Below are positions 1,320 to 39,249 of a stretch of 64,000 nt of DNA, piece by piece. Each line of letters opens with the position of its first letter. Position 1 is the stretch's first letter. A program made the translations under genes and the position numbers. The stretch is from Promethearchaeota archaeon (GTDB lineage: Archaea > Asgardarchaeota > Lokiarchaeia > Sigyniarchaeales > SOKP01): NCBI GenBank assembly GCA_048938855.1, contig JBHLLT010000013.1:1-64000 (forward strand), in the 5' to 3' direction. The notes beneath the pieces are model-generated. The model did not search any database and was not told where the DNA came from. It worked only from the letters and a program-made list of their open reading frames with translations.

Positions 1320-2720
1320 TCAAGATATCGCATCAAGTATTTTCTTAATTTTCTTTATCATATCCTTTGAATTTTTACCAAATAATCTAATCATTGGTTC
1401 CTTTCCTATAGCCCCCTTATCCCAGATAATATCAGGAATTCTACCTGTTCTTTCTGAACTTTCTTTAATTAACCATTGCATGGTAGAAAATTCTTCTTTT
1501 TTAATTTCTTCTGGTTGTTCTTCCCTGATAATTTCCTTTAATTCTAAATCAGTTCCTTTCTGAATCATAGATATCCAATCGAAATTATATTTTAAATTCA
1601 TTACAATATTAACAGAATTATCAAAATCTTTTGCAGATAGGATTAATCGAGCAGTATGATCAGATGCACCAAATTTAATTTCTCCAGAAGCTTTTGGAAA
1701 ATTGTTAACAATTGTAATTCTTCCATCCACTCCAGCAATTTCCTCTTTTCTAATAGCATTTGGAAGCGATGCAGAGATATTCATTCTAACTTCGGGAATA
1801 AATTTACTGAATTCTTTTGATTGAGAGATAAAATTATAGACTTCTTTGATTTGTTCTATAACTTTTAATCGCTCATCAGAGATTGTTAAATCCATCATTT
1901 TACCATTATCAGGCAATTCTATAAACATTTGAAACTTTTTGTCAAAGAACTTTTCCGCTTTATCAATTGCTTTCTCAATTGAGTAACTCTTAGCTAAGAA
2001 AGCTGTAATTGCGGATGAAAAAACACAGCCAGTCCCGTGAATGTTCCCTTTAAAATTGACTTTTTTTTTTTTATAAAATTGAGATTCTTTTTTCATTTGA
2101 CCATTTATATCTTTATTAATGAACACAAAATCATAAATATCATCGCTTTTGCTTCCAATGCTTTTAATAACTACTGCTTTTTCAATGTTCTTAGAATCTT
2201 CATTAAAATATAATTTATTAAGTAAAATTTCCCCAGCTTCTTGTAGTTCATCAACATTTTCATTTGAAATATCTGCCAAATTCATTTTTGAATAGTAAGA
2301 AGCTTCTTGTATATTAGGTGTGATTATTTTTACATAAGGAAAAAGATTTCTTTCAATTTTTAATTCCAATCCTTCACTAGAAAGTCTTTCTCCTGCACTA
2401 GCAGTTGAAATTGGGTCGAGAATAGTTTTTAGTTTATAATTTTTAATATATTTTACAATTATATCTATTGTTTTAGCATCTGGAATCATCCCAATTTTTA
2501 TAAATTTTATTGGATAAACTGTTAATATTGCGTCTAATTGACTATCTAATTCATCAGAAAGAGATCTATATCCAATAAACTTCTTAGCTGTTTGATATGT
2601 AATCGCAGTGATTACAGAAAAAGGATGTACTCCACATCTATCAAAAGTCCTTATATCTGCTTGAATTCCCGCTCCTGAAGTAGGATCTGAACCCGCGATC
2701 GTTAAACATATGGGCTTCAT
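1320..2720 (-). CDS. thiDN: Bifunctional HMP/HMP-P kinase fused to thiamine-phosphate synthase ThiN
   Basis: LTIAGSDPTSGAGIQAD, KIGM and HGTGC (ThiD); IPEVRMNI, GVDGRI, FGASDH and GKEPMIRLFG (ThiN). Confidence 0.92.
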   Translation of the reverse strand: MKPICLTIAGSDPTSGAGIQADIRTFDRCGVHPFSVITAITYQTAKKFIGYRSLSDELDSQLDAILTVYPIKFIKIGMIPDAKTIDIIVKYIKNYKLKTILDPISTASAGERLSSEGLELKIERNLFPYVKIITPNIQEASYYSKMNLADISNENVDELQEAGEILLNKLYFNEDSKNIEKAVVIKSIGSKSDDIYDFVFINKDINGQMKKESQFYKKKKVNFKGNIHGTGCVFSSAITAFLAKSYSIEKAIDKAEKFFDKKFQMFIELPDNGKMMDLTISDERLKVIEQIKEVYNFISQSKEFSKFIPEVRMNISASLPNAIRKEEIAGVDGRITIVNNFPKASGEIKFGASDHTARLILSAKDFDNSVNIVMNLKYNFDWISMIQKGTDLELKEIIREEQPEEIKKEEFSTMQWLIKESSERTGRIPDIIWDKGAIGKEPMIRLFGKNSKDMIKKIKKILDAIS

Positions 2721-30746: not shown

Positions 30747-32402
30747 ATGTTAAGAAAACGTTATCAGCTGAATTGGATGTTTGAATGTCCTGATGCGGTA
30801 TTAACATGTTCAGTATTGAAATGTAAGAATAATAATTTTTTAGTTTTTGGCGGACATGATAAAACTCTTTATTTAATGGATGAAAAGATGAATATCGTCG
30901 ATGATAGAACTTTTGATGGCTGGTGTAGATGCAGTTATTCAATAGATCTTGACGGAGATGGATGCGATGAAGTATTAGTAGGTGCTGGTGATGGAAATTT
31001 CATGGTTTTAAAATTAAATGTTGACAAAAAGAAACTTGTGGGTATAATGCGATATAAATCTTCAAAGAGGATTAATTGTTGTACCGCTGGAGATTTTACA
31101 AGAGATCGGAATATTGAATTAATATTTGGAAGCAATGATAAAACTCTTAAAATTTTTAATGATATAAAGGCAAAAGAGCCTAAATTTGTGTTATATTACG
31201 ATTCTTGGGTTACAGCTTGCACATTGGGTTTCTTAAAACTAGCAGATTATGAAAATCCTATAAATGGATTATTAATTGGCACTAAAAATGGTATAGTTCA
31301 ATTAGTTCAATTTCAAGATAATATGCTCGATATTGTATGGCAAAAAAATTTTCATACACAGATAAATGATATTAAGGTTGGTGACGTTACGAATGATGGA
31401 TTAAACGAAATCCTCCTAAGCACTGATGATTCATTTGTAAGAATTTTAAATAGTGAAGGAGAATCCATTAAAGAAATTAGCACTGAAGAAGGGCGTCCAA
31501 TTTCACTTTTAATAGAAGATATTGACGGTGATAATGCCAAGGAAATAGTAGCCGGATGCGCAGATGGCTCGTTAAAAGTGTTCCAGAATACATCTTTAGA
31601 TTCACAAGAATTTGAGTTAAAATGGAAAACTAAAGTATCTACCTCTATTAAAAATGTATGTTATCTTACAGGAGATGATAAGAATATAAAGCAAATTGTA
31701 TTTGGAGGATATGACCGTACAATTAGAAATATTACGGACTTTGAATGGGGTCAGAAACAATCACTAGAAATTCCTAGGAAAATTAAAGTTGATGAAATTA
31801 AAGAGAGCATAAAAAAAGATTTAGCTAGCGAAATTGCGAAAATAAAAGAAATTCCAACAAGTATGCGAGAGTATATTTTCAATTATTTTCAAGAACATGG
31901 ATATTTAAAAGATATAATGGAAGAATTATTAAACCAAGGTTATTCTGAAGATGCAATCTTAGATGAATTCGCACTTCTAAAAACACAGAAATCAGTTGTT
32001 TACGAGAAAGTTACATATCCTGTATGGAGTTTACCTAGTGAAGAAATTGAGAAGGAAATGCCAAAAGAAGTTGAAGCCGAAGTCATCGTTGAAGAACAAC
32101 TAAAACCCAAAGTACAACCACTAGTCATTGAAGAGACAGTCACCCCGAAAAAGGAAAAATTACGATCAGCTTTAGATAATGAACCTAAAGCAAAAGTTAG
32201 TACTGACGGTTCATTAGGAAATATTATTATTGAGTATTTAAAAGAAAAGAAATTAGTGGCAACTAAAACTCAGGTTATTGATGACATTAAAGAAAAAGGT
32301 TTTTCAAATACTGAAATCGATAAGGAAATAAATAATCTTAAGGAACAAGGCAAGATTCAATATTCTCGAGCAAAACCAAAAGGATGGAGTTTGGCTGAGT
32401 AA
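30747..32402 (+). CDS. FG-GAP-like beta-propeller protein (BBS2/ITFG2-like repeats) with a C-terminal winged-helix-like domain
   Basis: DLDGDGCDEVLVGAGDG, GDFTRDRNIELIFGSND, GDVTNDGLNEILLSTDD, DIDGDNAKEIVAGCADG; C-terminal IIEYLKE...INNLKEQGKIQY. Confidence 0.7.
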   Translation: MLRKRYQLNWMFECPDAVLTCSVLKCKNNNFLVFGGHDKTLYLMDEKMNIVDDRTFDGWCRCSYSIDLDGDGCDEVLVGAGDGNFMVLKLNVDKKKLVGIMRYKSSKRINCCTAGDFTRDRNIELIFGSNDKTLKIFNDIKAKEPKFVLYYDSWVTACTLGFLKLADYENPINGLLIGTKNGIVQLVQFQDNMLDIVWQKNFHTQINDIKVGDVTNDGLNEILLSTDDSFVRILNSEGESIKEISTEEGRPISLLIEDIDGDNAKEIVAGCADGSLKVFQNTSLDSQEFELKWKTKVSTSIKNVCYLTGDDKNIKQIVFGGYDRTIRNITDFEWGQKQSLEIPRKIKVDEIKESIKKDLASEIAKIKEIPTSMREYIFNYFQEHGYLKDIMEELLNQGYSEDAILDEFALLKTQKSVVYEKVTYPVWSLPSEEIEKEMPKEVEAEVIVEEQLKPKVQPLVIEETVTPKKEKLRSALDNEPKAKVSTDGSLGNIIIEYLKEKKLVATKTQVIDDIKEKGFSNTEIDKEINNLKEQGKIQYSRAKPKGWSLAE

Positions 32403-33819: not shown

Positions 33820-35076
33820 TCAGATTAATTTTTTTCTTTTCCACTGTTTTAATTCGTCATTACTGTACCCTAATAATTTACAATAAATTTCTTCATTATG
33901 ACATCCAAATTCTGGTCCAAAATCCTCAACAGAACCCTTTGTGTCTGAGAAGTTTATCAAGCGATTGGGTACTGTTGCTTTTTCAACACCCCATTTAGAA
34001 AAATCAAAATGATCAATTAACATTCCTCTCTCTCTAAGGTTGGGATGATTGTGGACTTCATCTATTCTTAAAGTTTTGCCACACGGAATTCTTTCTGCTT
34101 CTAATTGTTTGATAGCATCCTCTCTAGACAAGTTCCTGCTCCAATTTTCAATGTATTCATCTAAAATCTCAATATAATCAAATCTTTTTATTATATTAGT
34201 AAATCGAGGATCTTTAACTAACTCCGGCTTTTTTAATACAACCTCACAAAGACGAATCCACTGTTTTTCAGTCAAAGTAGTCAATACAATTAATCCGTCC
34301 TTGCAATGGTATTGATTGTAGATGGGTAAGAATTTTGAAACTACATCGATATCTTGAGCTCTTGGAATAAATTCTTTTGCTTGAGCTCTAATATTTATAG
34401 CGAACATGATATCATGCATCGAAATATCAATAAATTGTCCATTACCTGTTCTTTCACGATGATATAAAGCTTGGCTTATTCCAATTGCTGCAATATGACC
34501 TGCAGTATAATCTGCTATGGGTAATCTAGGTGGTCCTTCTTTAAAGCCTAAAGCATCAAGAATACCTGATTGGGCTTGAATAATTATATCAAATGCAGTT
34601 TTTTGAGTATATTGCTCTAATCCTTCGTTGCCATAACCTGATATTTTTGCGTATACTAATCTAGGATTAATTTCTTTCAACACTTTATATCCTAATCCCC
34701 ATTTCTCCATTGTTCCTTTTACGAAATTTTCTACAAGAATATCAGTTTTTTCTACTAGTCTTTTAAAAATTGTTTTAGCTTCTTCTTTTCTTAAATCAAG
34801 GGAAATTGATTTCTTTCCTCTGTTTAATATCGAAAATAATGGAAAAATAGTTTTATCATAAAGCACAAATAAACGGAATGCTTCTCCAAAAGGGGGTGGT
34901 TATAGTATAAAATGCGAACCGCATTCATATTTCTACCTTTATTACTTCTGCCCCTTGGTCTGCAAAAAATGTACTTGCCCATGGACCCGAGATGAATTTT
35001 GTACCTTTGAAGCGAAACGCTCTTTTTCAAAGTGTGAACAATCAAGGATCCTTAAACCATCAAATATTTTAGTCAT
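33820..35076 (-). CDS. Family III CoA-transferase (CaiB/BaiF), split by two introns: join(35034..35076, 34931..34998, 33820..34899), 396 aa
   Basis: Spliced N-terminus MTKIFDGLRILDCSQFISGPWASTFFADQGAEVIKVEPPPFGEAFR; then LNRGKKSISLDLR, DILVENF, NPRLVYAKISGYG, catalytic D in IADYTAG, RERTGNGQFIDISM. Confidence 0.9.
34900..34930 (-). other. Candidate BHB-type mRNA intron 2 (31 nt, phase 0)
   Basis: AUAUGAAUGCGGUUCGCAUUUUAUACUAUAA; central helix GUAG/CUAU, bulges AA|A and AA|C; removal joins KVE|PPP. Confidence 0.82.
34999..35033 (-). other. Candidate BHB-type mRNA intron 1 (35 nt, phase 1)
   Basis: ACUUUGAAAAAGAGCGUUUCGCUUCAAAGGUACAA; inner helix CUUUGAA/UUCAAAG, central GUUC/GUAC, bulges AC|A and AA|A; removal creates the CAA (Gln) codon of DCSQFISGP. 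Confidence 0.82.
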
Positions 35077-35277: not shown

Positions 35278-38200
35278 TTATGAAATTTGATTTATTATAA
35301 TAGAGGCTTTAGTAATTAACAAATCTCCTTCTTCTTGAGAGATTATTTCATTTTCGATGAAATCAAACACTTGATTAATGAATGCTTTAAGAATATTACT
35401 AGCTACATTGATTTGCATAGTCTGTATTTTTAAACTCGCTAAATCCAATTTAATTGTTAAAGATTTTGCTTGACCTTTTCTTAAAATTCCTTCATTAAGC
35501 ATTTCGGTTATATCGTCTCTCAGATTGAGAACTCTCTGTATAGGGTTATCACCTTCACTAGTTCGTGGATATGGATCTTCATTTAAAGCAAAACCATCAA
35601 TAGAATATGGAAAATCAACAATACCTATTGGATCTTCTACATCGGGGCTAACCCAATCACTCCAGTAATTATATTCAAATACATTACTAAATCCATTATC
35701 AGAAGCTTGACAACTTCCTTGATTGTTTTCAATGATATCGTTCCATTTAATCAAGTTTTCACTAGACATGTAACCAATATAAATCCCATACTCTCCACTA
35801 TTAAGAATTTTATTGTGGATAATACTATTGTGATCCGATTCATCGTTTAGTCCTATTCCCTCAGCATAACTGTTATTAATCTCATTCCAAGTTAAATTAT
35901 TATAATTTGAATGCTCATAAAGAATTATTCCAGAATCACAATCAAAAATATGGTTTTTTGAGACATTATTGTTGTCGGAGGAATGGAGACCAATCCCTTC
36001 CAATTGATTATTGTAAATAATATTGTCTACGATCTCATTATCAACAGATCCATCCCAAAGTACAATACCATGAAAATTGTTAATGATGACATTATTTTCA
36101 ATAATTCCGTTTTTGACATTTTCTAATTTAATACCTTCCCATTCCTGTGTGATACCATTTAGTTTACACTTGGATATGATGAAATATGCTGATGTATCTT
36201 TGATATGGATTAAATTCCCGTAATCAGCAGTAATGTAATAACTTTCAATAAGATAAGGGTCACCTTCCTCTCCACTCCCCGGGAACTCATAATCTTCAAA
36301 ATCATCATCATCATCAATATATATTGGTTCTTCCAGAGAACGAACAGATATGGTGGGCTCACCGGTTTCTGGGTCCTCTGATTCCTCTATAATTGTAACC
36401 ATCTGATCTGTTTGACCTTCTTCTAAAGGAACGTCCTCAACAGACCGTTCAAATAATATTACCCCTTCTGCACTGGAGAAATAGTTCATAGAATAAGTTG
36501 TTTCTTCCGTTGCGGTTATTTCATAACTGTAAGTTCCAAATATAGGATCTTTAGGATTGATTGCTATAAGGATCATTACACTGTCTTCTCCCTCCTCCCA
36601 GTCTTCGTTTTCTATATAGAATGCATTTAAGCCAATTTGATTTTCGTGTACGTTAATTATTCGCCCATAAGGATCCTCAGCCTGGAAAAGTATAGGAGAA
36701 CCTCCACGCCCTGTCATCCACCAATCGGCGTACGGAAGTGGTCCATAATTCTCTGGAATTGAAGGATCTAAAAGGGGTGCATCATCTACACCTTCATGTG
36801 GTAGATCAGTGTCACCAATATAATCTCCATCTAAATCTTCTCCCCAGTAATTACTCCAGAAGTTCCCTACATCGTTAATCGGGTCCACCCATACATTTAA
36901 ACCAGCCAAAATTTGATAATAATTATTGATCAAAAGATTTCGGTAAATATAATTTGAACTACCATTAGCAAAAATACCCCACCACGTATTTCTAGCAACA
37001 ATATTATTGGTTACTTCATTCAGTGTTGAGGAAAGTATAATACCTATTTTATTATCCGATATATAATTAACTGTAATATTATTATGGTCGCCATCATAAA
37101 TTGAAATTCCTGTATGAAAATTTTGAATTGTAAGATTTTTTATTGTAACTGAGTAATGATTAATGCTCAAAACTCCACTTCCATTGCCGCTACCTATAAT
37201 TTTGTGTCCATTGCCATTAATCGTGATTCCATCTGCCCCTATTATAAGCCCATTTCCTTCCTCAAAATACATATCTGAAGTTAGTGTATAATCAGTGGTG
37301 ATTAGTTGATTCTCATGTTCATAATAAACAGAATAAAACCATACTTTATCCATAGGATTAGATTGAAAGCCATTGAATTCATTATTATAAGCATCATAAT
37401 TTCGTGGTACACAGAGCCATACATAGGGCATTGAATCCTCAACAAGATATTCTTGGATCTTATCATAAATTTTTTTTCTAGCAATATGATCAATAGTATT
37501 TAGCCCTTCTGTTATTAGTTGTTCAAGATAAGCATCGTCTACTTGACCAAAGTTAGAAAATGAATCTTTACCGAATAAATAATATAAATAATCGCTTGGA
37601 TCGTTGTAATCCTGACCCCATCCTAAAAATGTAATGTCTATCTTTCTCCTTTCAATAAATAATCTCCTAGAATATTCTTCCCAATCTACGTCTTCAAGGA
37701 TTATTTTTATTCCAATTTTTGTTAGATTATTCTGTAATGTGACCCCTAACTCTTCTTTTCGTATACTTCCTATATTATAGGTATAATTATATGTTAGAAA
37801 CGTTGCTGCTTCCCATTGTGCTTCATTTATACCGGGAAAAGTTGGATCTAATCCAAGACCATAACCTGCAGCTTGCATTGCTTTCCTGGCTTCGGTGTAA
37901 TTTAGTTCTGGAAATTTCAATGTTGAATTTGCATATAAAATCCCATCAGGAACAGGTGATTTTAACCTTGAATAGTGGCCCTCTAATAGATCATTAATTA
38001 TATAATTATAGTCAATTGCATATGATATAGCTCTTCTACTATATGGATCTGATATTTTTGTATTATTCATTGTAAAGAAATAAGTTATTGTAGTATTCCC
38101 ACCATCTACAAATGTAATACCTGTATCTCCTTTAAGATCTTCAATCCGAGAAGTATCAATGTCATTAATAAAATCAACATTACCATCTAATAGTGATTGC

Positions 38201-38985
38201 GTAGCATCTGGAGTGATAGAAAACGTTAATTCATCTATATTAGCAGGACCATCCCAATAATTTTCATATTTGTGAAAACTCACTTCATTACCCACATATA
38301 AGTCATAGATAAAAGGACCTGTTCCAACTAAATCTCCTGTCATCAGATCAATATAATCTTCTCCGGGAGTTGAGTCAGGAGACATAATTCCTGATCCGCT
38401 AAAACATAAGAGAGCTTCAAATGGAGCAAAAATTCTATTTAATTTAAATTCTATTTCATATTCGTTGAGGATGTTTGTCGAGTTGATTACAGGTTTTCCA
38501 TCAGGCCATTCGTACAATGTAGAAAATATACATCTCCGAGTTTCATGAGGTAAAGTACCAGATACATTCATGAAATAAGCTAATCTTTTAAAGTTCCACC
38601 AAACAGCTGATGCATTGAATTCAGATCCATCATGAAACTTGATGCCCTGTCTAAGTGAGATTGTGTATGTTAATCCCCCCGAAGACCATATACCGAAATC
38701 TTTAGCGAGCCTAGGGATAATTTTATTTTCAGAATCAGATAAATTGTAAGCAAAAAGCGTTTCAACAACCTGATCGATAACATCAATAGAAGCACTATCC
38801 CATGCATCATGAGGATCCAAAGTTACTGGACCATTCCTTGTACCATATTTTAGTGTTATAGGTGGCTCAGAAGTCTTAAGGAATTCAAGTTCTTCTATTT
38901 TATTATCCAGTCTTGTCGGATTATAAATAAATATACCAAAAATAATGATAAAAAGAATACAAATTGAAATTCGTTTAGTTTTCAT
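35278..38985 (-). CDS. Secreted family-5 (OppA/DppA) solute-binding protein fused to two NosD/pectin-lyase-like beta-helix blocks and a C-terminal FIMAH-like helical domain
   Basis: N-terminal hydrophobic segment; TLDPHDAWD, LRQGIKFHDGSEFNA, GTGPF, RRAISYAIDY; GNFWSNY and YNYWSDW beta-helix ends; KAFINQV; ATG at 38985. Confidence 0.8.
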   Translation of the reverse strand: MKTKRISICILFIIIFGIFIYNPTRLDNKIEELEFLKTSEPPITLKYGTRNGPVTLDPHDAWDSASIDVIDQVVETLFAYNLSDSENKIIPRLAKDFGIWSSGGLTYTISLRQGIKFHDGSEFNASAVWWNFKRLAYFMNVSGTLPHETRRCIFSTLYEWPDGKPVINSTNILNEYEIEFKLNRIFAPFEALLCFSGSGIMSPDSTPGEDYIDLMTGDLVGTGPFIYDLYVGNEVSFHKYENYWDGPANIDELTFSITPDATQSLLDGNVDFINDIDTSRIEDLKGDTGITFVDGGNTTITYFFTMNNTKISDPYSRRAISYAIDYNYIINDLLEGHYSRLKSPVPDGILYANSTLKFPELNYTEARKAMQAAGYGLGLDPTFPGINEAQWEAATFLTYNYTYNIGSIRKEELGVTLQNNLTKIGIKIILEDVDWEEYSRRLFIERRKIDITFLGWGQDYNDPSDYLYYLFGKDSFSNFGQVDDAYLEQLITEGLNTIDHIARKKIYDKIQEYLVEDSMPYVWLCVPRNYDAYNNEFNGFQSNPMDKVWFYSVYYEHENQLITTDYTLTSDMYFEEGNGLIIGADGITINGNGHKIIGSGNGSGVLSINHYSVTIKNLTIQNFHTGISIYDGDHNNITVNYISDNKIGIILSSTLNEVTNNIVARNTWWGIFANGSSNYIYRNLLINNYYQILAGLNVWVDPINDVGNFWSNYWGEDLDGDYIGDTDLPHEGVDDAPLLDPSIPENYGPLPYADWWMTGRGGSPILFQAEDPYGRIINVHENQIGLNAFYIENEDWEEGEDSVMILIAINPKDPIFGTYSYEITATEETTYSMNYFSSAEGVILFERSVEDVPLEEGQTDQMVTIIEESEDPETGEPTISVRSLEEPIYIDDDDDFEDYEFPGSGEEGDPYLIESYYITADYGNLIHIKDTSAYFIISKCKLNGITQEWEGIKLENVKNGIIENNVIINNFHGIVLWDGSVDNEIVDNIIYNNQLEGIGLHSSDNNNVSKNHIFDCDSGIILYEHSNYNNLTWNEINNSYAEGIGLNDESDHNSIIHNKILNSGEYGIYIGYMSSENLIKWNDIIENNQGSCQASDNGFSNVFEYNYWSDWVSPDVEDPIGIVDFPYSIDGFALNEDPYPRTSEGDNPIQRVLNLRDDITEMLNEGILRKGQAKSLTIKLDLASLKIQTMQINVASNILKAFINQVFDFIENEIISQEEGDLLITKASIIINQIS

Positions 38986-39249
38986 TTGTCTAAACCCAAT
39001 TTTCTTTTCTAATTTATTAGGATTTCCACCCAAAACTAAGGTTTTTGGAACTAATTAATTAATTTTGGATTACCGAATGATTATGATATTTGGAATGTTA
39101 ATAAAGTTATTGTTTTTTTTGACAAATCTGTTAAGTCAAAACTAAATTTCAAACAAAGTTCAATACCTGAATTTTGTTTTCTAAAAAAAATATTATAAGA
39201 AAATTATTCTTCTTTTTATTCAACATTAAATTATCTAGAATTTAATCCA

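What the first reader, a model, noticed from the sequence alone, without database searches (positions are those of the whole stretch)
33820..35076. Protein-coding gene interrupted by two BHB (tRNA-type) introns: candidate endonuclease-spliced mRNA in an Asgard archaeon
Seen in sequence: the annotated 348-aa ORF lacks the CaiB/BaiF N-terminus. That N-terminus is present upstream in two pieces in different frames: MTKIFDGLRILDCS (35076..35034) and FISGPWASTFFADQGAEVIKVE (34998..34931). They are separated from each other and from PPPFGEAFR... by self-complementary inserts of 35 nt (34999..35033) and 31 nt (34900..34930). Insert 1: inner helix CUUUGAA/UUCAAAG, bulge ACA, central helix GUUC/GUAC (one U.U mismatch), bulge AAA, outer helix UGAUU/AUUCA (4 of 5 pairs). 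Insert 2: inner stem UAU-GAAUGCG/CGCAUUU-U-AUA, bulge AAA, central helix GUAG/CUAU, bulge AAC, weak outer helix (relaxed motif). Established: the archaeal splicing endonuclease cuts after the 2nd nucleotide of each 3-nt bulge. Applying that rule gives TCA-C|AA-TTC (S-Q-F) and GAA|CCA (E-P), i.e. DCSQFISGPW and VIKVEPP, and a normal-length 396-aa enzyme with no other lesions. Inference: these are true mRNA introns removed by EndA and RtcB. The established precedent is the single cbf5 intron of some Crenarchaeota; two introns in a metabolic gene of an Asgard archaeon would be a new setting. I cannot verify whether this has already been reported.
Basis: partly seen in the sequence, partly recalled or inferred. 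Interest (0 to 1): 0.96.

Follow-up and report, generated by a model that had tools for sequence, protein, structure and literature searches.

The report
Asgard enzyme gene with two mini-introns
A CoA-transferase gene of an Asgard (Promethearchaeota/Lokiarchaeia-type) archaeon is broken by two 31-35-base inserts shaped like tRNA introns, and comparison with about 40 relatives shows they almost certainly have to be cut out of the messenger RNA, which the papers I could search report for only one archaeal coding sequence (cbf5), though no spliced RNA was seen here.

Summary
Confirmed. Removing 34999-35033 and 34900-34930 gives a stop-free 396-aa family III CoA-transferase that aligns without gaps (80-90% identity) to intron-less orthologues. 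Among 42 distinct orthologues, 11 carry an insert at site 1, 21 at site 2 and 19 at neither. Insert sequences diverge, but the bulge-helix-bulge (BHB) central helix stays 95% paired at the protein-defined junction, and the intron-2 stem shows compensatory changes. Flanking exon codons are constrained in carriers, and the gene is under strong purifying selection (dN/dS 0.06-0.10). Three independent DNA studies hold both inserts. The genome encodes both EndA subunits, with the broad-specificity loop, and RtcB. I verified five more such inserts in rpl11 (two), RNase HII, AMP phosphorylase and cdhC. Most share a C-NNN-UCG apical loop. Splicing itself is inferred: no RNA data were available. Verdict: EndA/RtcB-spliced pre-mRNA introns (about 0.9), a new variant of the cbf5-type intron. 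This scan has noted the same phenomenon before, on other DNA and in other genes of this genome.

The parts
35034..35076 (-). Exon 1 (start codon to Ser14 plus the first base of Gln15)
34999..35033 (-). Intron 1, 35 nt, phase 1; BHB with 7-bp inner helix
34931..34998 (-). Exon 2 (68 nt; Pfam PF02515 positions 12-33)
34900..34930 (-). Intron 2, 31 nt, phase 0; relaxed BHB; in-frame TGA
33820..34899 (-). Exon 3 (residues 38-396 and stop; contains the mis-called 348-aa ORF starting at GTG 34866)
35036..35039 (-). Intron 1 central helix, exon strand (pairs with 35004-35001)
34933..34936 (-). Intron 2 central helix, exon strand GUAG (pairs with 34905-34902)
35013..35019 (-). Apical C-NNN-UCG loop of intron 1
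34915..34921 (-). Apical C-NNN-UCG loop of intron 2
35041..35061 (-). Exon 1 strand of the predicted extended exon-exon helix beyond intron 1 (partner 34996-34976)
34976..34996 (-). Exon 2 strand of the predicted extended exon-exon helix beyond intron 1

Best explanation
The gene is a working family III (CaiB/BaiF) CoA-transferase gene whose transcript carries two short BHB introns. Shown by sequence comparison: each insert pairs with the last exon bases to form a 4-bp helix flanked by two 3-nt bulges and an inner hairpin, and removal after the second base of each bulge gives the conserved 396-aa protein. Inferred: the heteromeric alpha/beta splicing endonuclease EndA (with the L1/CSL loop that accepts relaxed motifs) cuts both bulges on the pre-mRNA, and RtcB ligates the exons, so that translation of the enzyme depends on the tRNA-splicing machinery. 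The introns are optional and labile across the genus, being present or absent at the same two sites. They belong to a set of 28-37-nt mRNA introns in this genome that mostly share an apical C-NNN-UCG loop.
For: Spliced product is 396 aa and ungapped against orthologues. A protein-only spliced aligner blind to RNA structure recovers 35-nt and 31-nt inserts at these sites. The BHB cut point lies among the residue-preserving junctions in all 32 carriers, and is the only one in 6 of them. Central helix 95% paired versus 1-67% in slid registers. The window carries a two-sided exon/intron change, C-G to U-A, in helix 1. Intron-2 alignment: 85.6% of cells paired, 8 pairs and 22 cells with two-sided changes versus at most 5 and 9 when slid. 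All 21 intron-2 carriers keep exonic RUAG versus 5 of 21 non-carriers; a stricter G-RUAG test goes the same way in 8 of 8 independent pairs, p = 0.008. Exon1-exon2 duplex is stronger in intron-1 carriers (median -12.0 versus -6.3 kcal/mol), with different synonymous solutions in different lineages; independent-pair p is about 0.07, so only suggestive. pN/pS in exons 1+2 is 0.15 in intron-2 carriers versus 0.13 in intron-less genes. EndA alpha is closest to the Aeropyrum pernix alpha subunit, with the loop Lys and the Tyr/His/Lys triad (PMC5829648); beta subunit; RtcB. The only rpl11 and RNase HII genes found in this genome carry the same kind of insert.
Against: No spliced transcript, circular intron or cleavage assay was observed. 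Intron 2 has only one closing outer pair, intron 1 has a U.U mismatch in its central helix, and the MFE fold does not show both BHBs complete. One carrier (L035) has a frameshift downstream, either a pseudogene or an assembly error. Orthologues are related and many come from one set of submissions, so the counts are not independent.
Confidence: 0.9

Rival explanations
1. The inserts are removed from the RNA, but by a different or additional factor (for example a protein that reads the conserved C-NNN-UCG loop) rather than by EndA alone, or EndA cleavage mostly leads to decay and acts as a regulatory switch.
For: The apical loop motif occurs in 49 of 58 distinct mRNA inserts from four genes, although EndA reads only the BHB. 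By eye the tRNA introns of this genome lack it. Yeast TSEN cleaves mRNAs for decay (PMC10485636).
Against: The cut points match the EndA rule exactly. The G000 cdhC insert lacks the motif. Conservation of the joined protein requires ligation, at least part of the time.
Confidence: 0.05
2. Translational bypassing or programmed frameshifting skips the inserts without splicing.
For: The inserts are short hairpins with early stop codons, and intron 2 is flanked by a short AA repeat.
Against: Insert lengths cover all three frames at site 1 (32, 33, 34, 35 nt) and two at site 2, and every carrier stops early when unspliced. Site 1 splits a codon. The AA repeat is missing in L026, L032 and L034. The conserved pairing geometry is that of a BHB.
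Confidence: 0.02
3. Pseudogene or truncated gene: the inserts are lesions, and at most the 348-aa product from GTG 34866 is made.
For: Intron-less alleles are common, so the gene might be dispensable; L035 is frameshifted.
Against: dN/dS is 0.06-0.10 over the whole spliced CDS. Exons 1-2 are under purifying selection in carriers. Pairing-preserving divergence of the inserts and the same inserts in rpl11 and RNase HII cannot be explained by decay.
Confidence: 0.015
4. The inserts are excised at the DNA level in part of the population (a miniature mobile element or phase-variable insert), and intron-less DNA supplies the protein.
For: Presence and absence are patchy, needing at least 10 and 12 changes on the exon-3 tree.
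Against: Contigs from four runs show the inserts and no joint skipping them. Intron-less alleles differ at many synonymous sites rather than being precise deletion copies. There are no terminal inverted repeats at the ends and no consistent target duplication.
Confidence: 0.015

Closest known systems
BHB intron in the cbf5 pre-mRNA of Crenarchaeota (Desulfurococcales, Sulfolobales; Yokobori et al. 2009, PMC2738675; Yoshinari 2006 as cited in PMC10485636)
   Same: Short intron inside a coding sequence at a conserved motif; relaxed BHB at the borders; cut after the second base of each bulge; host with heteromeric (alpha-beta)2 EndA; patchy gain and loss among relatives.
   Different: Different gene (a metabolic CoA-transferase), different phylum (Asgard), two introns around a 68-nt exon, several intron-bearing genes per genome, and a shared apical loop motif. 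cbf5 splicing was shown by cDNA and cleavage; here it is inferred.
Haloferax volcanii HVO_1309 mRNA intron (reviewed in PMC10485636)
   Same: EndA-cleaved mRNA whose spliced form appears in RNA-seq.
   Different: A single case in a euryarchaeon with alpha-2-type EndA; not homologous to this gene.
Non-canonical tRNA introns of Asgard archaea (PMC11291895; bioRxiv 10.64898/2026.10.13.758758)
   Same: Similar size and BHB/relaxed-BHB geometry; repeated gain and loss; same enzymes presumed; those too have not been shown spliced in an Asgard cell.
   Different: These lie in mRNA. Neither paper mentions protein-gene introns in my term searches. The C-NNN-UCG loop was not seen by eye in this genome's tRNA introns.
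Family III CoA-transferases (PF02515; formyl-CoA transferase / YfdE / CaiB relatives)
   Same: The spliced protein is an ordinary full-length member: exon 2 and exon 3 hit PF02515, and its 90%-identical orthologue P0002 matches PDB 10uh and 4hl6 at E about 1e-50.
   Different: No NCBIfam equivalog cut-off is reached, so the substrate is undetermined.

Membership tests
EndA-spliced BHB pre-mRNA intron | [quoted passage not shown] | tested here: met
EndA-spliced BHB pre-mRNA intron | Cutting after the second base of each bulge restores the conserved reading frame and residues | tested here: met
   (unique junction in 6 of 32 carriers, compatible in all)
EndA-spliced BHB pre-mRNA intron | Host encodes a heteromeric EndA with the broad-specificity L1/CSL loop, and an RNA ligase | tested here: met
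   PMC5829648
EndA-spliced BHB pre-mRNA intron | Host gene is functional (purifying selection on the spliced frame) | tested here: met
EndA-spliced BHB pre-mRNA intron | Spliced mRNA or excised circular intron observed | tested here: inconclusive
   No RNA run holding this stretch was listed; pattern and protein look-ups returned only contigs that read as DNA or could not be typed
EndA-spliced BHB pre-mRNA intron | Cleavage by the host EndA in vitro | not testable with these tools
   needs a biochemical assay
cbf5 intron family proper | Located in the catalytic Asp codon of cbf5 | tested here: not met
   The host gene is PF02515; it works like the cbf5 intron but is not a member of that family
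Group I / group II self-splicing introns | Ribozyme core of hundreds of bases, often with an ORF | tested here: not met
   Inserts are 30-35 nt
Programmed frameshift / ribosomal bypass | Fixed frame change with matched take-off and landing codons | tested here: not met
   Insert lengths vary over all frames and site 1 splits a codon
Family III CoA-transferase (PF02515) | Full-length domain including the N-terminal segment | tested here: met
   Exon 2 covers profile positions 12-33 and exon 3 covers 50-366; joined length equals that of the orthologues

The most novel reading that the evidence does not exclude
This Asgard lineage has a dedicated class of mRNA micro-introns, distinct from its tRNA introns and marked by a conserved C-NNN-UCG apical loop. 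They give several genes (including rpl11 and RNase HII) a multi-exon structure, shape synonymous codons in the flanking exons, and are gained, lost or exchanged between lineages together with the upstream exon block. That would be a spliceosome-independent exon-intron system, actively turning over, in the closest prokaryotic relatives of eukaryotes.
Probability: 0.35. Interest if true: 0.93.

Novelty: new variant of a known kind. Interest (0 to 1): 0.82.

Why it matters
The papers I could search treat endonuclease splicing of archaeal mRNA as a rarity (cbf5, plus one Haloferax mRNA). If confirmed, an Asgard genus splices ordinary and housekeeping mRNAs, some with two introns, through the tRNA machinery. 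Gene expression would then be coupled to EndA/RtcB, and Asgard annotations would systematically truncate proteins: about half of the top database hits for this enzyme are short forms of roughly 293-385 aa, though some of those may simply lie at contig ends. Intron gain and loss becomes testable in closely related genomes, which the recent tRNA-intron preprint names as the central open problem. It also shows that multi-intron coding genes can arise in the lineage sister to eukaryotes without a spliceosome. It does not imply any homology to spliceosomal introns.

Tried and rejected
RNA evidence: no RNA holder listed. Reads were laid on four DNA runs. A JGI pattern scan for exon 2 gave three contigs, all carrying introns. 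Full-length database proteins that might have come from transcripts gave nothing usable: the CoA-transferase ones were intron-less genes far from the window at synonymous sites, one rpl11 record was labelled as a metagenome, and the sample type of the others could not be told. None of this counts for or against splicing.

De novo genome scans: the BHB-plus-ORF scan was too noisy (826,993 raw candidates). The motif-guided scan ranked five verified introns in its top eight, but control motifs scored nearly as high; its top new hit (C28) lay antisense to an intact gene and another (C6) inside an intact ORF. A covariance model of intron 2 found only itself.

Genome comparison: I fetched one contiguous 400-kb stretch of relative G006 and stopped there rather than tile the rest, because the tool lays only the window's own genome whole. 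In that sample, 274 and 235 gene comparisons showed no further BHB-like insert private to either genome. Introns shared by both genomes are invisible to that test, so I have no genome-wide count.

Failed or mis-set calls: structure counts were mis-registered (my bracket strings, plus a MAFFT gap inside helix 1) and are disregarded; one search was a length error. The exon2-exon3 duplex test for intron 2 was not significant (p about 0.1; independent pairs p = 1). The sigma-70 promoter scan is uninformative for an archaeon. Literature searches for Asgard or Lokiarchaeia mRNA introns found nothing on point; subscription journals are not covered.

Full report
Observation. The minus strand holds an ATG at 35076, two inserts and a long 3' frame ending at 33820. 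ORF callers report only a 348-aa product from GTG 34866. Removing 35033-34999 and 34930-34900 gives 1191 nt and 396 aa with no internal stop; leaving either insert in stops translation at residue 45 or 39. Exon 2 alone matches PF02515 positions 12-33, and exon 3 matches positions 50-366. At a fixed junction such anatomy arises by chance at about 3e-4 and 1.5e-4. Contigs from three other studies carry both inserts without gaps, so this is not an assembly error. Global folding energy is unremarkable (z = -0.43).

Host. Orthologues come from genomes titled Promethearchaeota. The labels Hermod-, Hod-, Odin- and Thorarchaeota on some records are probably misassigned, because the same loci were returned from genomes placed in the window's own genus. 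The genome is 3.95 Mb, 30% GC and 97% complete, and many of its tRNA genes are interrupted.

Orthologues. Dozens of database proteins are exactly 395-396 aa and align without gaps to the spliced product at 80-90% identity, reading DCSQFISGPW and VEPP across the junctions. Of 42 distinct gene sequences, 9 carry both inserts, 2 only the first, 12 only the second and 19 neither. Inserts lie at identical positions, are 32-35 nt and 30-31 nt long, and are only 50-87% identical to the window's. Every carrier stops early if unspliced, including those whose insert length is a multiple of three. A protein-to-DNA aligner with no structural information recovers the same two inserts. The EndA rule gives a residue-preserving junction in all 32 carrier cases and the only such junction in 6.

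Structure under selection. Anchored at the protein-defined junction, the 4-bp central helix is 95% paired for both introns, against 1-67% in slid registers. In the window the second pair of helix 1 is U-A where the other ten carriers have C-G: a synonymous exon change matched by an intron change. For intron 2, 14 sequences give 85.6% paired cells, 8 pairs with two-sided changes and a covariation score of 0.34, against at most 0.12 when slid (the structure was derived from these sequences, so the control flatters it somewhat). All 21 intron-2 carriers keep exonic RUAG, against 5 of 21 non-carriers, and a stricter version of the test holds in 8 of 8 phylogenetically independent pairs. Intron-1 carriers also form a stronger exon1-exon2 duplex using synonymous positions, with different codon solutions in L034/L050, L030 and the window's group (independent-pair p about 0.07, so suggestive only). 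The equivalent test for intron 2 was not significant.

The gene is alive. Whole-CDS dN/dS against five relatives is 0.06-0.10. Exons 1-2, which would be dead sequence without splicing, have pN/pS 0.15 in intron-2 carriers and 0.13 in intron-less genes. One carrier, L035, has a downstream frameshift.

Machinery. There are two EndA-domain genes. One is closest to the Aeropyrum pernix catalytic subunit, aligns through the N-terminal loop with its Lys, and keeps the Tyr/His/Lys triad (triad identity from the alignment and my knowledge of the family). The other lacks the catalytic His and is read as the structural subunit. PMC5829648 reports that Asgard archaea have (alpha-beta)2 EndA with this L1 loop, which allows relaxed motifs to be cut. 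RtcB is present.

Not an isolated case. Following leads from earlier scan notes, I verified BHB-type inserts in this genome's rpl11 (37 and 36 nt), RNase HII (30 nt, in the DEAGRG motif; present in 13 of 13 genus members searched and absent in the other families), AMP phosphorylase (30 nt) and cdhC (30 nt). rpl11 and RNase HII each gave a single match in the genome. That makes at least 7 introns in 5 genes; I have no complete count. A 400-kb sample of one relative revealed no further private inserts, so intron-bearing genes are a small minority. Of 58 distinct inserts from four of these genes, 49 have C-NNN-UCG near the apex; the shorter WUCG occurs in 46 of 58 against about 7% expected per insert. 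The G000 cdhC insert lacks the motif. EndA does not need it, so it is unexplained: common ancestry, a stable loop or a binding site.

Turnover. Presence and absence need at least 10 (intron 1) and 12 (intron 2) changes on the exon-3 tree. Eight carriers, including the window, are nearly identical at synonymous sites over exons 1-2 (window versus L013: 2 of 32, against 53 of 132 in exon 3, p = 1e-4). They are rejected as a clade on exon 3 (p-AU 1e-70; the group was chosen after seeing the data), and the window's exon-3 sister L010 lacks both introns. Two readings fit: structural constraint on synonymous sites in carriers, which partly shows, and recombination of the 5' block between lineages. 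L080 favours recombination in at least one case: its upstream region and exon 1 resemble the intron-less L001 type, while exon 2, intron 2 and exon 3 resemble L013. Direction (gain or loss) is not resolved.

Mechanism and confidence. Shown: the inserts, their conserved BHB geometry, exact restoration of the protein, selection on both protein and RNA structure, and the enzyme genes. Inferred: transcription, EndA cleavage and RtcB ligation. No RNA was available. I put EndA/RtcB splicing at 0.9. An additional or different RNA-level factor gets 0.05; bypassing, pseudogene and DNA excision share the rest.

Comparison with what is known. It works like the crenarchaeal cbf5 intron (PMC2738675) but is not a member of that family, since the host gene and site differ. 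A 2023 review counts two archaeal genes spliced by EndA, cbf5 and HVO_1309 (PMC10485636), and the 2009 paper notes that introns in other protein genes had been predicted but not confirmed. Asgard intron papers concern tRNA genes or group II introns. I found no paper on Asgard BHB mRNA introns, within a library that lacks most subscription journals. This scan's own notes report the same phenomenon in at least 33 genomes, including this enzyme family and one RNA-derived contig in a Jordarchaeum. Those notes are unchecked and I do not count them as evidence.

Verdict. A real, well-supported pair of tRNA-type introns in a functional Asgard enzyme gene; a new variant of a known kind; interest 0.82, limited mainly by the lack of RNA confirmation.

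Noticed in passing
G000:C49 rpl11 (L124, about 1850-1950, minus strand): Two BHB inserts (37 and 36 nt) around a micro-exon. Relatives show three alternative intron sites in the first 36 codons, in various combinations.
   Followed up: yes
G000:C81 RNase HII (L146): 30-nt insert in the DEAGRG motif in 13 of 13 genus members searched; the central helix covaries (UGGU/ACCA, UGGG/CCUA) but is weak in G000.
   Followed up: yes
G000:C74 AMP phosphorylase (L170) and G005 (L163): 30-nt BHB insert in HSTGG, present in 2 of 13 genus members.
   Followed up: yes
G000:C49 cdhC (L184) and G004 (L185): 30-nt BHB insert in G000; G004 has a different 30-nt insert six codons upstream.
   Followed up: partly
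window 35013-35019 and 34915-34921; L116-L170: Shared C-NNN-UCG apical loop in 49 of 58 mRNA inserts; not seen by eye in this genome's tRNA introns; function unexplained.
   Followed up: partly
L080, L022/L006, L003/L036: Mosaic alleles: the exon 1-2 block and the upstream region do not follow the exon-3 tree, suggesting allele exchange around the intron sites.
   Followed up: partly
L174:2002-2717 and L175:659-1370: rpl1 is called in two pieces in two other assemblies; possibly another intron. It is intact in G000.
   Followed up: no
L035, about codon 113: One-base frameshift in an A run in an intron-bearing orthologue: pseudogene or assembly error.
   Followed up: no
proteins P0287 and P0256: Truncated (probably intron-bearing) and full-length rpl11 proteins differ at only 2 of 135 residues, hinting at very recent gain or loss; the DNA was not fetched.
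   Followed up: no
G000 contigs C11, C18, C19, C29, C30, C37: GC 53-67% in a 30%-GC genome: probable contaminant contigs.
   Followed up: no
G000:C49:41348-41440: tRNA-Sec predicted by ARAGORN.
   Followed up: no
window 35278-39033 (-) and 30747-32402 (+): Neighbours: a 1251-aa solute-binding protein (SBP_bac_5) fused to beta-helix/NosD repeats, and a BBS7/FG-GAP-like beta-propeller protein. The small genes downstream are syntenic in relatives.
   Followed up: no
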